DNA from: Candidatus Thorarchaeota archaeon
GTDB lineage: Archaea > Asgardarchaeota > Thorarchaeia > Thorarchaeales > Thorarchaeaceae
Assembly: GCA_029855935.1 (NCBI GenBank)
Contig: JAGSHN010000013.1
Span: 1-30,326, forward strand
DNA length: 30,326 nucleotides
Direction of reading: 5' to 3'
Under the pieces are notes generated by a model, which saw only the letters and a list, made by a program, of their open reading frames with translations, did no database searches and was not told the origin of the DNA. Position numbers and translations under genes: made by a program. Positions 8,729-13,223 of the stretch are shown here, in pieces (position 1 is the stretch's first letter; each line of letters starts with the position of its first letter).

Positions 8729-10357
8729 TTAGCCGAACCACATTTCATCATCTCGGCCCCGTCTTCTCGCCTCCATCCCCTCTCTGAGGACCGTCCCCAG
8801 CAGAAGGCCCGCACTGAGAACTCTTGTTATTCGCACATCAAGCAGTGTGCCGGGCGTGTATCCCCCTGCAACCGTCATAATTGGCCCCTCTCCGAGCGGA
8901 TAGACCATCGTGTATCCCCTATGGGTCAGCGAGGCCTCTGCAGCGATACCCCGCACGATTCTTCCGACATAGCGCCTCTTTCGTCGCCTATTGATTCTCT
9001 CAACCGCCTCTCTCAGAAGTCGTCCCCTGCGGTCTCTTGGCGAGGCTCTCGGAAAGTCGGCAAAGGCAGAACCTGGCAACGGCTCGAAGGCGTAGAGTAT
9101 GATCCTCTCGGCACCCGCTCTGTCAATCTCCTCAAGCAGGTTGATAGTCTCCCTGACGGTCGCATCATCCTCTCCCGGAAGGCCGTAGATGAGGTAGACA
9201 AACGGTCTCATACCCACCTCTCGCGCCGTTCTCACAGCACGTACTACGTCCGCGGGGTCGCCACACTTTCCTACTCTTCGACGATGCTCTCTCGAACCTG
9301 ACTCCAGCCCGATGTTCGGGGACGTGTCCTTCACGTACCGTGCGATGATCTGCGCCACCTCTGGTGTGAAGAGGCACGCCTTGATGTTCTCAATCGAGAG
9401 ATGCGCTCTGCCCTCTCGGAAGGCAGGCAGGGATGCAATACTGCTCAGCAGCGACTCTATGGCGCGCAGGTTGGGTGCTGGTGCACAAGGGTCTGTCGCA
9501 GGATACCTGCCGCGGCGGAAATCGAGGAAGTCCGGCGCCTCCAGCACAATCCTGTGGACTCCGAGTGTCAAGAGCTCCTCAACCTCTGTCACAATGCTCT
9601 CTATGTTCCTCGATCTTGGAGCCCCCCAAGTGGCAGGTACACTGCAGAACCCACATCCCGGGGGGATATCGTGGGGACATCTCACTCGCAAGACCGGGTC
9701 CGGTGAGGTGCATCGGCCGCAGTCATCACACTGACGGCCGTCAGGCAGTCTCAATGTGGTCCTGAGGAAGTTCGAACAGCCTCTCAGCACCTCGACATAG
9801 ACCTTGCTCGCCTGGTACGCGGGATAGTCCACAATGCGCGTGACGGAGGGAACATAGCGTCTCATCGTGTTCTCGTCCATCAGGTCGCGCTGCTCTGTGA
9901 GTACAGGTTGTCCCTGATGCAGAAACCCTATCCCCTTGATGGTGTGCAGGTCGCAGCCACCTTCAAGGAAGCCCCCCTTGATGAGGTCCTCAACGGTGCG
10001 TTCGCCCTCTCCAATCACCATTGCATCTGGACGAAGTCTGGACAGGACGCGCTCGCCCCCGGATGCTATCGGACCACCCAGAAGGACATTTCCGCGGCGC
10101 CTGCGTCGCCACCGCCTGATCACACGAGATACTGCAGTCTGGTCGGTTGTCATTGCACTGACCGCGATGTGCGCGAAGTTCCGAAGTCTGACACGTCCAT
10201 CGAGGACATCCTCAGCGCGTGCTATTCTGCACTCGACATCCAGCATCTCAAGAACGCCGGCGATTGTGCGAGGGCCGCAACCTATTGCGTCACGTGAGGT
10301 GACTCTTCTCCCAGAGCCTGCGCTGAGGGCGTCGACTATCAGTACGCGGTCTGACAT
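8729..10357 (-). CDS. Radical SAM protein with N-terminal B12-binding-like domain and C-terminal TRAM-like domain
   Basis: LLGGP, VIGEGE, EVLRGC..GCGFC, RSRNIESIVTEV, IGLESGS, IYGLPGE, FEPLPGS and a TRAM-like tail (PGTLLDVRITRV). ATG 10357, after AGAGGA, is the preferred start. Confidence 0.85.
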   Translation of the reverse strand: MSDRVLIVDALSAGSGRRVTSRDAIGCGPRTIAGVLEMLDVECRIARAEDVLDGRVRLRNFAHIAVSAMTTDQTAVSRVIRRWRRRRRGNVLLGGPIASGGERVLSRLRPDAMVIGEGERTVEDLIKGGFLEGGCDLHTIKGIGFLHQGQPVLTEQRDLMDENTMRRYVPSVTRIVDYPAYQASKVYVEVLRGCSNFLRTTLRLPDGRQCDDCGRCTSPDPVLRVRCPHDIPPGCGFCSVPATWGAPRSRNIESIVTEVEELLTLGVHRIVLEAPDFLDFRRGRYPATDPCAPAPNLRAIESLLSSIASLPAFREGRAHLSIENIKACLFTPEVAQIIARYVKDTSPNIGLESGSREHRRRVGKCGDPADVVRAVRTAREVGMRPFVYLIYGLPGEDDATVRETINLLEEIDRAGAERIILYAFEPLPGSAFADFPRASPRDRRGRLLREAVERINRRRKRRYVGRIVRGIAAEASLTHRGYTMVYPLGEGPIMTVAGGYTPGTLLDVRITRVLSAGLLLGTVLREGMEARRRGRDDEMWFG

Positions 10358-10484
10358 TCCTCTCTGGCCCCATCGGGCTGATCCATCTCTCAGACGGTAG
10401 GATGCCTCGCCGTTCAGTTGCACTTATATGTCACCCTGATACCTCTCTATTTTAGACAAAAAGACGTACAGGAGAAAGCGAGAC

Positions 10485-10826
10485 CTGTCGGACGAAGGAG
10501 GTATTTGCCCAAACTGCGGTCTTCCAACAGACCTCTGTGTCTGCGAGACCATTGCACAAGAGGAAGCACGAATTACGGTCACTGTGGAACGCCGGAAATG
10601 GGGCCGGCTGACGACCGTGATCTCGGGTTTTGACAAGAACATTGACCTTGGGGAGATGGCCACCAAGCTCAAGAGCAAACTGGCCTGTGGTGGTGCTGCA
10701 AAACATGGTCACATCGAGCTACAGGGCGACCATCGCGGTGTCATCAAGGAGGTCCTCAGCCAGCTTGGTTTCCCCGAGGAGACCATTCACATTGACTGGT
10801 CGTTCATGCCATCCGGACGCAGATGA
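10485..10826 (+). CDS. sui1: Translation initiation factor aIF1/SUI1 (probable CTG start)
   Basis: In-frame ICPNCGLPTDLCVCETIAQE lies upstream of the tracked GTG at 10584; LKSKLACGG and IELQGDH follow. The frame is closed by TGA at 10437-10439, with no ATG, GTG or TTG before the Cys knuckle. CTG 10485 is 10 nt after AGGAG. Confidence 0.85.
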   Translation: MSDEGGICPNCGLPTDLCVCETIAQEEARITVTVERRKWGRLTTVISGFDKNIDLGEMATKLKSKLACGGAAKHGHIELQGDHRGVIKEVLSQLGFPEETIHIDWSFMPSGRR

Positions 10827-11016
10827 CCCCCCGTGGTCTGTATATCGGCTCACTGCCGCATGACCATCGCACGAAAAGAAGTATTGTGACTGTAGCCGCC
10901 ACCGGTGACCTGTGACCGCAGGGCCACGTGAATCCTCAGTCCGTGCGGTAACGTCATACGTCCCTGACAAGAGAGGGATGCCCAGCTGATATCGTGCCCC
11001 CATCCTTCTTCTCGAC

Positions 11017-12006
11017 CTACTGATGACCCTGACCAAAACCACCCTGTGAGTCTATATTGAGGACTCTGACAATCTCCTTGTAGCGATTCCTCACTGTGAC
11101 CTCAGTCACCCGGGCCACCTCTGCTATCTCGCGCTGAGTCCTCCTCTCATCGAGCAGAATTGATGCCACGTATATCGCTGCTGCTGCCAGCCCGAGCGGG
11201 TCGCGTCCGATTGTCAACCCCATCTCCCTACTTCTCTTCAATATCTCAATCGTCCTCAGCTGTACAGGGCTTGAGAGTGACAGTTCGGATGCAAATCTCG
11301 GGATGTAGTCTATCGGATTCGAGAGCGGAATCTTGATTCGCAGGCTTCGGAGAAGCAGCCTGTAGCACTGACCCAGCTTCTTCTTATCGACCCTTGAGGC
11401 ATCTGCTATCTCGTCGAGTGGGCGTGGTTTCTGTCGTATCCTGCAAGCAGCATACAGAGTGGCCGCCACCATGGCCTCTATGGATCTGCCTCTCACGAGC
11501 TTCTTGATGATGGACTTTCGATACAGAAGCGCAGCCAGTTCGCGTATTGATGAGGGAATGGAGAGCTGTGATGCCAGTCTCTCAAGCTCTGACATGGCCT
11601 GTGCGAGGTTGCGGTCAATCGATCCGTGGACACGAGACCGTATCTGCCACTTTCTAAGACGATAGATCTCTGAGCGGCGTGTGGGAGTGAGCTTTCTGCC
11701 AGATGTGTCCCTGTCGCGCCAGTCTATGACGGTCGAGAGACCCTTGTCGTGAATAGTGTATCTCATTGGTGCGCCAACTCGACTGCGCGCCTCTGCCTCC
11801 TCGTGACTGAACACACGCCATTCTGCACCTGTGTCTATGCGATGGTCGGATAGTACAAGGCCGCATCCTGCACATATCCGCTCCCCGCGTGCTGCGTCCT
11901 CAATGACCTGCGTAGACCCGCACTCAGGACAGCAGACAGTGTCGCTACTGGTGCCCCCACTGGTATGCTTCTCCTCATCCTTCCCCTGCAAACCTTCCAA
12001 AGACAT
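11017..12006 (-). CDS. tfb: Transcription initiation factor IIB (TFB)
   Basis: Zn ribbon CPECG..CAGCG, EWRVF, SRVGAP, HDKGLST, LRKWQ, two cyclin repeats, VTEVTVRNRYKE. ATG 12006 follows GGGGAGGT. Confidence 0.96.
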   Translation of the reverse strand: MSLEGLQGKDEEKHTSGGTSSDTVCCPECGSTQVIEDAARGERICAGCGLVLSDHRIDTGAEWRVFSHEEAEARSRVGAPMRYTIHDKGLSTVIDWRDRDTSGRKLTPTRRSEIYRLRKWQIRSRVHGSIDRNLAQAMSELERLASQLSIPSSIRELAALLYRKSIIKKLVRGRSIEAMVAATLYAACRIRQKPRPLDEIADASRVDKKKLGQCYRLLLRSLRIKIPLSNPIDYIPRFASELSLSSPVQLRTIEILKRSREMGLTIGRDPLGLAAAAIYVASILLDERRTQREIAEVARVTEVTVRNRYKEIVRVLNIDSQGGFGQGHQ

Positions 12007-12287
12007 ACCTCCCCTGACCAAGAGGTTGCAAGCGAGCGGGCGCAACGATGCCAGAAATCGCTGTCAGTTTCCAAGGTGCTCTGCCGAGGCTCCGAGGACC
12101 CACCCTCATCTCTCATTTGAAAACAAGCATTTAATGATTGTGGGAGACGTGCCCGATAGTGTTTGTCGCACCTATTGGCTCATACAGATCCATGCTCGTT
12201 GGTGGTGCCCTCCCTCTTTCACCTCGTGAGGCTCCCTCCGGACCGCATCCGTTCTCGGGTCAGCTGACGTTTCGCTTCACGGCTCAC

Positions 12288-13223
12288 TCATGTCGTCTGC
12301 TCGTGACCATCGTCGGTGATCAACACAGTGTGTTCGTGCTGCGACACGAACACCCCCTTCTCCTCAGCAAGAATGGGATGGGCTATCAACGCGCCATTCT
12401 GTCGAAGCTCGCGAATTGCCATCTTGAGGGCCGCGTGCCTCATCCGCTGAGCAAGCCATCGCTCTGCAAACGGGAACTCCCTGTACTCTCGCCGTGCGAT
12501 ACTCAGGAATTGGCGGCTCCCTCTGAAGCGTACTGGGACCCTGATTGGCAGAAGCTGGTAGATCAGCGGGTTGGGCTGTTCTGTGACATTCCCCGAGCCC
12601 GTGCTGGCAAAGACCTCTATGGCATATGCCTCTCCTGCCTCGACTACCACCTCTGGCTTTCCCGACACACAGGGCACCTGCTTCTCTCCATGCAGTGTCC
12701 ACTCCTCCAGCTGATGGCCTGTGAGTTGCTTGACTGGTTCGAAGCCAGCACTGTGAATAGTGTCCTCAATCAGCTCACCTATTGTGTTCAGCTTCGCCCC
12801 TGGTCGGATCACATCGACTGCGGCCCTCACTGCCTCCTCTGCAGCCTTGACAAGGCTCTCGTGTTCAGGATTGAGCGCCACAGTGAATGCCGAGTCCGAG
12901 ATGCATCCCTCGACATGCGCCCCACAGTCGACTGTGACGAGATCGCCATCCTGTATCACCGTCTCATCGTTGAGCGGGGAGGTATAGTGCGCTGCGATAT
13001 GGTTGATTGCAACGTTGCACGGAAAGGACAGGCCAGTGGCGTGTTCTCTGATGTAGCTCTCCACCGCCTCCACAATGTCTATGACCTTGGTGCCGGGCTT
13101 GATCATTGGTCTTGCTATATCGAGGGCCTCACGCGCAATCACACCAGCGCGACGCCACCGATCCCACTCGTCCTCAGGCTCCTCGGCCTCGGTCTGGTCC
13201 TCTGTTTCTGACTTCTCGGACAA
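12288..13223 (-). CDS. map: Methionine aminopeptidase, type II
   Basis: FPCNVAINHIAAHYT, VDCGAHVEGCISDSAFT, LTGHQL, AIEVFAS, SQHEHT, plus the type II helical insert. Confidence 0.95.
   Translation of the reverse strand: MSEKSETEDQTEAEEPEDEWDRWRRAGVIAREALDIARPMIKPGTKVIDIVEAVESYIREHATGLSFPCNVAINHIAAHYTSPLNDETVIQDGDLVTVDCGAHVEGCISDSAFTVALNPEHESLVKAAEEAVRAAVDVIRPGAKLNTIGELIEDTIHSAGFEPVKQLTGHQLEEWTLHGEKQVPCVSGKPEVVVEAGEAYAIEVFASTGSGNVTEQPNPLIYQLLPIRVPVRFRGSRQFLSIARREYREFPFAERWLAQRMRHAALKMAIRELRQNGALIAHPILAEEKGVFVSQHEHTVLITDDGHEQTT

What the first reader, a model, noticed from the sequence alone, without database searches (positions are those of the whole stretch)
10424..10826. aIF1/SUI1 appears to start at a near-cognate CTG codon: candidate autoregulation
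Seen: the conserved N-terminal CPxCGLPxxLCVC knuckle (10506 onward) is in frame, but between the upstream stop (10437-10439) and this motif there is no ATG, GTG or TTG. CTG at 10485 gives MSDEGGICPNC, lies 10 nt after an AGGAG SD (10470-10474), and follows a TATA-like TTATAT (10424-10429). ATT at 10503 is a weaker alternative. Known: start-codon fidelity factors autoregulate through poor starts (bacterial infC AUU; eukaryotic eIF1 poor-context AUG). Inference: an archaeal version of the same feedback loop.
Basis: partly seen in the sequence, partly recalled or inferred. Interest (0 to 1): 0.72.

Follow-up and report, generated by a model that had tools for sequence, protein, structure and literature searches.

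The report
aIF1 gene starting at CUG
In this uncultivated Thorarchaeota (Asgard) archaeon the only gene for aIF1, the factor that proofreads start codons, has no normal start codon and almost certainly begins at a weak CUG; this could let the factor limit its own synthesis, but that is untested and a few other genes here also start at CUG.

Summary
The single SUI1/aIF1 gene (10485-10826, +) has no ATG, GTG or TTG between the in-frame TGA (10437-10439) and its zinc knuckle.

- **Start site:** CTG 10485 sits 10 nt after AGGAG, in this genome's most common Shine-Dalgarno register.
- **Thorarchaeota relatives:** among 46 distinct sequences the aligned codon is CTG (12), GTG (33) or ATT (1), never ATG. 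In six CTG genomes a stop lies one codon upstream. All 24 family loci examined keep the SD and a TATA-like box.
- **Asgard phylum:** 41 of 135 aIF1 genes have no canonical start (CTG, ATA, ATT or ATC) in at least six families. An unbiased control, aIF1A, had none in 30.

The CUG start is therefore well supported (about 0.9). Autoregulation like bacterial infC (AUU) or eukaryotic eIF1 is plausible but untested (about 0.45). It is weakened because this genome has about 13 SD-led CTG starts. These include KsgA, whose CTG is also conserved, plus a Ras-like GTPase, a Csa3-like protein and MTHFR. Rpo7 starts at ATT.

I found no paper describing this. The scan had already noted the same pattern on other DNA (Thor CUG, Loki AUU, Hadarchaeota CUG, AUA cases).

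The parts
10421..10430 (+). TATA-like promoter box (cACTTATATg; TTATAT at 10424-10429), about 61 nt upstream of the start. The inferred transcription start lies near 10450-10456, giving a leader of about 30 nt.
   Evidence: Sequence. A CTTATAT-type box lies at -58 to -77 from the start in all 24 family loci. Promoter function and transcription start are inferred, not measured.
10437..10439 (+). In-frame TGA that closes the aIF1 frame upstream
10470..10474 (+). Shine-Dalgarno AGGAG, 10-nt spacer to the CTG
   Evidence: Its A is at -15 and GGAG at -14 from the CTG. This matches the modal register of SD 5-mers before unambiguous starts in this genome. GGAG lies at -12 to -16 in all 24 family loci.
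10485..10487 (+). CTG, the inferred initiation codon (read as Met by initiator tRNA; this is inferred)
   Evidence: No canonical start is available. It aligns with GTG or CTG in 45 other Thorarchaeota sequences. In six CTG genomes a stop lies one codon upstream.
10485..10826 (+). aIF1/SUI1 coding sequence, 113 codons plus TGA stop (10824-10826)
   Evidence: Pfam PF01253 at residues 27-97, 66.2 bits. Single copy in the genome.
10506..10544 (+). N-terminal zinc knuckle CPNCGLPTDLCVC
   Evidence: C2, C5, C12 and C14 are invariant in alignment A1. Only synonymous codon changes are seen across relatives.
10584..10586 (+). First canonical in-frame start (GTG). Using it would give an 80-aa product lacking the knuckle, and standard ATG/GTG/TTG ORF rules would pick it.
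   Evidence: the ORF listing.

Best explanation
The aIF1 mRNA is a monocistronic, SD-led transcript from the conserved TATA-like box at 10424-10429. The 30S subunit is placed by AGGAG (10470-10474), and initiator Met-tRNA starts at CUG 10485, giving M-S-D-E-G-G-I-C-P-N-C. That part is well supported (about 0.9). aIF1 is the factor that destabilises initiation complexes on non-AUG codons. A near-cognate start on its own mRNA should therefore make its synthesis fall when aIF1 is abundant and rise when it is scarce. This would be a negative feedback of the kind known for bacterial infC (AUU start) and eukaryotic eIF1 (poor-context AUG). The feedback step is inference (about 0.45). Only the anatomy and its conservation are shown.
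For: - **Anatomy:** there is no ATG, GTG or TTG between the TGA and the knuckle, and CTG lies 10 nt after AGGAG.
- **SD register:** it equals the genome optimum.
- **Relatives:** the aligned codon is CTG in 12, GTG in 33 and ATT in 1 of 46 distinct Thorarchaeota sequences, with no ATG or TTG and at least 5 state changes on the gene tree.
- **Forced start:** a stop lies one codon before the CTG in six genomes.
- **Conserved signals:** the SD and TATA-like box are present in 24 of 24 family loci.
- **Coding constraint:** the S-D-E-G-G and knuckle codons vary only synonymously, including TCN/AGC Ser switches.
- **Gene-specific recurrence:** 41 of 135 Asgard aIF1 genes lack any canonical start. 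The codons are CTG, ATA, ATT or ATC in at least six families. CTG also occurs in a Hadarchaeota MAG and ATA in an Aenigmatarchaeota MAG. aIF1A shows 0 of 30.
- **Rarity:** SD-led CTG starts are about 13 of 2452 ORFs in this genome.
- **Known biochemistry:** aIF1 makes S. solfataricus 30S complexes reject AUU (PMC4705826) and proofreads erroneous complexes in P. abyssi (PMC6237735).
Against: - No expression or binding data exist for any archaeon.
- CTG is not unique to aIF1 here. The Pfam domain starts upstream of the first canonical codon in a Ras-like GTPase, a Csa3-like protein, MTHFR and KsgA (CTG), and in Rpo7 (ATT).
- CTG is the most SD-enriched non-canonical codon genome-wide (29 against 15.6 expected, p=0.0013).
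- KsgA keeps CTG at its start in about 12 of 17 family genomes and is also never ATG. 'Conserved and never ATG' is therefore not special to aIF1 within this family.
- aIF1A is TTG throughout.
- Most sister genera use GUG, an ordinary archaeal start.
- No conserved RNA structure accompanies the site (z -0.01, no Rfam hit).
- Related genomes are not independent samples.
Confidence: 0.45

Rival explanations
1. The CUG start is real but carries no feedback. Thorarchaeota tolerate near-cognate starts behind a strong SD. CUG (like GUG in sister genera) simply sets a fixed, low translation rate, or drifted in neutrally and persists by phylogenetic inertia.
For: Other genes in the same genome need CTG or ATT starts. 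There is a genome-wide excess of SD-preceded CTG. KsgA keeps a CTG start and aIF1A a TTG start, and neither is ever ATG in this family. The CTG set in aIF1 is largely one clade of 8 plus three smaller origins.
Against: Non-canonical starts arose repeatedly, with different codons, in aIF1 across at least six Asgard families and two other phyla. They are absent from aIF1A (0 of 30) and nearly absent from KsgA and Rpo7 outside the Thor family. That gene-specific recurrence is hard to explain by drift. By the factor's known activity, any non-AUG start on aIF1 mRNA would be sensitive to aIF1 level.
Confidence: 0.42
2. Translation starts elsewhere in the open frame: at ATT 10503 just before the knuckle, at ATT 10449, or at the internal GTG 10584 giving a knuckle-less 80-aa protein.
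For: ATT 10503 follows GGAGG (10497-10501). GTG 10584 is the first canonical codon.
Against: The GGAGG-ATT spacing is 1 nt, and that GGAGG is GGTGG or GGCGG in relatives. The Ile codon is ATC or GTT in several relatives, and it is an internal residue in archaea that start M-S/A-E-I-C-P. ATT 10449 is excluded by stops one codon before the CTG in six relatives. The knuckle upstream of GTG 10584 is invariant, with synonymous-only changes, so it is translated.
Confidence: 0.05
3. Artefact or decay: an assembly or sequencing error at 10485, or a pseudogene.
For: This is a single metagenome-assembled genome and reads are not available.
Against: The same CTG is present in independent assemblies of other species: 12 of 46 distinct Thorarchaeota sequences and 14 species genomes without any canonical start. 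The ORF is intact, under purifying selection, and is the only aIF1 in a 97%-complete genome.
Confidence: 0.02

Closest known systems
Bacterial infC (IF3): AUU start codon with translational autorepression
   Same: The gene for the factor that rejects non-canonical start codons itself begins at a conserved non-canonical codon behind a normal SD. The predicted logic is identical: more factor means less initiation on its own mRNA.
   Different: IF3 and aIF1 are unrelated proteins. The codon here is CUG (GUG, AUU or AUA in relatives), not AUU. Feedback is demonstrated for infC and not tested here. In this genome near-cognate starts also occur on about a dozen unrelated genes.
Eukaryotic eIF1 (SUI1): autoregulation through a poor-context AUG (Ivanov et al. 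2010, cited in PMC6237735)
   Same: It is the homologous protein (SUI1 domain) with the same role in start-site stringency. Its weak initiation site is conserved on its own mRNA.
   Different: Eukaryotes use scanning and Kozak context with an AUG. Here the mRNA is SD-led, and the weakness lies in the codon itself.
Other archaeal aIF1 genes with non-canonical starts, seen here and in earlier notes of this scan
   Same: The architecture is the same (SD, 6-11 nt spacer, near-cognate codon, then the zinc knuckle 3-8 codons later). Examples are an Odinarchaeota-labelled MAG (ATA), Baldrarchaeum (ATA), family f9 (ATT or ATC), family f4 (CTG) and a Hadarchaeota MAG (CTG).
   Different: The codons differ and the origins are independent. 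I found none described in the literature I could search.

Membership tests
aIF1 / SUI1 translation initiation factor (Pfam PF01253) | SUI1 domain above Pfam's gathering score | tested here: met
   66.2 bits against 25.5, E 3.5e-18, residues 27-97 covering profile positions 2-77 of 77.
aIF1 / SUI1 translation initiation factor (Pfam PF01253) | Archaeal-type N-terminal zinc knuckle CxxC...CxC | tested here: met
   CPNCGLPTDLCVC at 10506-10544. The four Cys are invariant in 19 aligned Asgard sequences.
aIF1 / SUI1 translation initiation factor (Pfam PF01253) | Sole orthologue in the genome (not a spare paralogue or pseudogene) | tested here: met
   One match in G000, which is 97.3% complete.
Fidelity factor autoregulated through a weak start site (infC / eIF1 type) | Its own initiation site is sub-optimal and evolutionarily kept so | tested here: met
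   CTG, GTG or ATT and never ATG in 46 Thorarchaeota sequences. No canonical start in 41 of 135 Asgard genes.
Fidelity factor autoregulated through a weak start site (infC / eIF1 type) | The weak start is specific to this gene rather than a general habit of the genome | tested here: inconclusive
   CTG starts are rare (excess of about 13 in 2452 ORFs). However, KsgA, a Ras-like GTPase, a Csa3-like protein and MTHFR also need CTG, and Rpo7 needs ATT. aIF1A has none in 30.
Fidelity factor autoregulated through a weak start site (infC / eIF1 type) | The encoded factor discriminates against the codon used | not testable with these tools
   Known for S. solfataricus aIF1 against AUU (PMC4705826) and for eukaryotic eIF1. 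Not known for CUG in any archaeon.
Fidelity factor autoregulated through a weak start site (infC / eIF1 type) | Output falls as factor level rises, and the effect is lost when the start is changed to AUG | not testable with these tools
   Needs reporter or toeprint experiments.
SD-led archaeal mRNA | SD complementary to the 16S 3' end at the genome's usual distance from the start | tested here: met
   AGGAG begins at -15, which is the modal register (161 of the SD 5-mer hits before unambiguous starts). The 16S 3' end itself was not found in the MAG.

The most novel reading that the evidence does not exclude
Start-codon stringency is a regulated variable in Asgard archaea. aIF1 would sense and set it through its own near-cognate start (CUG, AUA or AUU, evolved repeatedly). 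The dozen or so other CUG/AUU-start genes of this genome (KsgA, Rpo7, a Ras-like GTPase, Csa3-like, MTHFR and others), and perhaps the invariably UUG-started aIF1A, would form a small regulon whose output tracks aIF1 level. This would be an archaeal counterpart, possibly a forerunner, of the eukaryotic eIF1/eIF5 stringency circuit.
Probability: 0.15. Interest if true: 0.85.

Novelty: new variant of a known kind. Interest (0 to 1): 0.64.

Why it matters
Bacteria (infC, AUU) and eukaryotes (eIF1, poor context) each make their start-codon fidelity factor from a deliberately poor start site, which gives homeostatic control of initiation accuracy. If archaea do the same with aIF1, all three domains share this logic. 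In the closest relatives of eukaryotes it would involve the eIF1 homologue itself.

There is also a practical consequence. ORF rules limited to ATG, GTG and TTG give an 80-aa product here that lacks the zinc knuckle. About 30% of the Asgard aIF1 genes sampled have the same problem. The data also show that CUG is a real, conserved, low-frequency start codon in Thorarchaeota.

Tried and rejected
- **Start at ATT 10503, ATT 10449 or GTG 10584:** rejected on conservation.
- **Assembly error or pseudogene:** rejected. The same CTG occurs in independent assemblies, and the ORF is the single intact copy.
- **Coupling or frameshift from an upstream ORF:** rejected. The upstream gene is divergent (radical SAM on the minus strand). 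The out-of-frame TTG 10418 is absent in relatives such as L004 and L005.
- **Conserved leader RNA structure or known RNA family:** none found. Folding gave z -0.01 and Rfam gave 0 hits.
- **Special initiator-like tRNA with a CAG anticodon:** the only tRNA(CAG) is an ordinary long-arm tRNA-Leu. The initiator tRNA itself was not identified in the MAG.
- **16S 3' end:** not found in the assembly, so the anti-SD was inferred from SD statistics.
- **Raw count of triplets after AGGAG, GGAGG or GGAGT genome-wide:** uninformative because of coding-sequence background. It was replaced by an ORF-anchored census.
- **Literature:** five searches and four papers read. None reports a non-canonical start or autoregulation of archaeal aIF1. 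This covers open-access full text only.

Full report
**Observation.**
- The frame that encodes CPNCGLPTDLCVC (Cys codon at 10506) opens after TGA 10437-10439.
- Its 22 codons before the knuckle include no ATG, GTG or TTG.
- CTG is at 10485, AGGAG at 10470-10474 (10-nt spacer), and TTATAT at 10424-10429.
- The first canonical in-frame codon is GTG 10584. It would give an 80-aa product without the knuckle.
- The product from CTG (113 aa) matches Pfam SUI1 PF01253 at 66.2 bits against a cut-off of 25.5.
- It is the only aIF1 in the 2.97-Mb, 97%-complete genome.
- The nearest named relatives are 'Candidatus Thorarchaeota archaeon' MAGs at 92-93% identity.

**Is CTG the start?** I fetched the orthologous locus from 24 genomes of the same family and 6 more distant Asgard genomes. 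I then read the upstream frames.
- At the position aligned with CTG 10485, 12 family genomes have CTG and 11 have GTG. One (L021) has neither and has ATT 11 nt after GGAG.
- In six CTG genomes (L004, L005, L008, L010, L011, L014) an in-frame stop lies one codon before the CTG. Only the CTG or the Ile codon next to the knuckle could then start the protein.
- That Ile is ATC or GTT in some relatives. In other archaea it is an internal residue of M-S/A-E-I-C-P N-termini, so it is not the start.
- The codons between the start and the knuckle (S-D-E-G-G) and in the knuckle change only synonymously, including TCN/AGC Ser switches. They are therefore translated.
- All 24 loci carry GGAG at -12 to -16 and a CTTATAT-type box at -58 to -77 from the inferred start.
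- Adding 32 Thorarchaeota loci from GTDB species genomes gives 46 distinct sequences: 33 GTG, 12 CTG, 1 ATT, and no ATG or TTG. The (weakly resolved) gene tree needs at least 5 state changes.
- An assembly error is excluded by recurrence in independent assemblies.

**Genome context of SD and start codons.** I made a crude ORF set for the genome: 2452 non-overlapping stop-to-stop frames of at least 120 codons, covering 90% of the sequence.
- Before 1198 unambiguous starts, GGAG peaks at -14/-13 and GGTG at -11.
- The A of AGGAGGTGA is most often at -15. That is exactly the register of the aIF1 AGGAG.
- I counted in-frame codons that lie upstream of the first canonical codon and are preceded by a 5-mer SD in that register. 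CTG ranks first of all non-canonical codons, with 29 of 557 against 15.6 expected (p=0.0013). ATT gives 12 of 299 against 8.4 expected, which is not significant.
- For comparison, 445 first-canonical codons carry such an SD.
- CTG starts are therefore real but rare here, with an excess of about 13 genes (about 0.5% of ORFs).

**Other genes with near-cognate starts.** Pfam shows that in several genes the domain begins before the first canonical codon.
- CTG: a Ras-family GTPase (L115), a Csa3-like protein (L114), MTHFR (L119) and KsgA (L120).
- ATT: Rpo7 (L118).
- Possibly ATA: RadA (L117).
- First readers of other windows of this genome had flagged some of the same genes.

**Controls across relatives.**
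- **KsgA** keeps CTG at its aligned start in about 12 of 17 family genomes, and TTG or GTG in the rest, never ATG. The CTG is forced by a nearby stop in three genomes. In the others an in-frame GTG lies inside the GGTGA SD motif, so CTG is inferred by alignment.
- **Rpo7** is ATT in 6 and ATG in 8 of 16 family genomes.
- **aIF1A** was chosen without regard to its start. It has a conserved GGAGG-attat-TTG in nearly all Thorarchaeota and many other Asgard genomes, and no non-canonical start in 30 loci.
- 'Conserved and never ATG' is therefore not peculiar to aIF1 inside this family.

**Phylum-wide census.** A profile search of 161 Asgard genomes found aIF1 in 145. I fetched the 5' ends of 106 more loci and tallied 135 with a knuckle.
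- Overall, 50 have ATG, 41 GTG and 3 TTG. The other 41 have no canonical codon within 14 codons of the knuckle.
- The 41 fall in six families:

| Family | Loci without a canonical start | Codon |
|---|---|---|
| f1 (Thorarchaeota) | 14 of 35 | CTG, one ATT |
| f4 | 2 of 2 | CTG |
| f8 (Baldrarchaeum by name) | 1 of 1 | ATA |
| f9 | 20 of 26 | ATT or ATC |
| f14 | 1 of 3 | ATA |
| f15 (matches an Odinarchaeota-labelled MAG) | 3 of 3 | ATA |

- In each case an SD-like motif lies 6-11 nt upstream. In the other six f9 loci the only GTG sits inside the SD-like motif.
- One family f19 genome (L203) has ATA where its relatives have ATG, although in-frame ATG and GTG codons lie a few codons upstream inside the SD-like motif.
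- Outside the phylum, a Hadarchaeota MAG has CTG and an Aenigmatarchaeota MAG has ATA. Methanomethylicia use TTG.
- Repeated, independent acquisition of different near-cognate codons by this one gene is the strongest argument for gene-specific selection. The controls show almost none outside the Thor family.

**Mechanism.**
- *Shown:* the anatomy (promoter-like box, SD, CUG, ORF) and its conservation.
- *Established elsewhere:* aIF1 sits by the P site and destabilises complexes on non-AUG codons. It rejects AUU in S. solfataricus (cited in PMC4705826) and has a proofreading role in P. abyssi (PMC6237735). infC and eIF1 are autoregulated through weak start sites.
- *Inferred:* CUG is decoded by initiator Met-tRNA, and initiation on aIF1 mRNA falls as aIF1 rises.
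- No extra cis-element is needed or seen. The leader folds no better than shuffles (z -0.01) and has no Rfam match.
- The main rival is a static weak start in a lineage that tolerates near-cognate codons. The two cannot be separated without experiments.

**Novelty.** Five full-text searches and four papers, including two recent reviews of archaeal initiation, gave no report of a non-canonical start or autoregulation of archaeal aIF1. The scan itself had already noted the same pattern on other genomes: Thor CUG, Loki-type AUU, Hadarchaeota CUG and AUA cases. My census agrees with those notes where I could check them. I class the finding as a new variant of a known kind of circuit, with the start codon call solid and the feedback unproven.

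Noticed in passing
L295 (G000:C14, match 41203-41394 minus strand) and L279-L308: The aIF1A gene has a conserved GGAGG-attat-TTG start in nearly all Thorarchaeota and many other Asgard genomes, and ATG in only a few. The partner factor of aIF1 is thus also kept on a weaker (but canonical) start codon.
   Followed up: partly
L120 (G000:C21:9893-10759, minus) and L121-L137: KsgA/Dim1 rRNA dimethyladenosine transferase appears to start at CTG behind a GGTGA SD. A stop lies one codon upstream in G000, and the Pfam domain begins 9 codons before the first canonical codon. CTG is kept in about 12 of 17 family genomes and the rest have TTG or GTG. From my own knowledge, KsgA methylation affects initiation fidelity in bacteria; I did not check this here.
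   Followed up: partly
L118 (G000:C17:90940-91536, plus) and L147-L162: RNA polymerase subunit Rpo7 starts at ATT after AAGGAGGT in G000-G003, G009 and G016. Eight other genera of the family have ATG at the same position.
   Followed up: partly
L114 (G000:C29:110581-111264), L115 (G000:C12:52675-53205, minus), L119 (G000:C21:288598-289530): A Csa3-like regulator, a Ras-family small GTPase and an MTHFR-family protein each have their Pfam domain beginning well upstream of the first ATG, GTG or TTG, with an SD-preceded CTG as the only plausible start. Standard ORF rules would truncate them by 97, 28 and 37 codons.
   Followed up: partly
L203 (G050:C482:10507-10686): In family f19 all aIF1 genes start ATG-gca-caa-caa, except this genome, which has ATA at that position (an in-frame ATG and GTG lie a few codons upstream inside the SD-like motif). 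It looks like a sporadic, recent ATG-to-ATA change.
   Followed up: no
G000:C17:179648-179788: ARAGORN finds only one tRNA-Met(CAT) in the assembly. It contains an intron and looks like an elongator type. No initiator tRNA and no 16S 3' end (GGATCACCTCC) were found, so the anti-SD and initiator identity could not be read directly.
   Followed up: no
window 8729-13223: aIF1 is flanked by a divergent B12-binding radical SAM gene (8729-10423, minus) whose longest ORF start abuts the aIF1 TATA box. Downstream lie a convergent TFB gene (11017-12045, minus) and a methionine aminopeptidase gene (12288-13223, minus).
   Followed up: no
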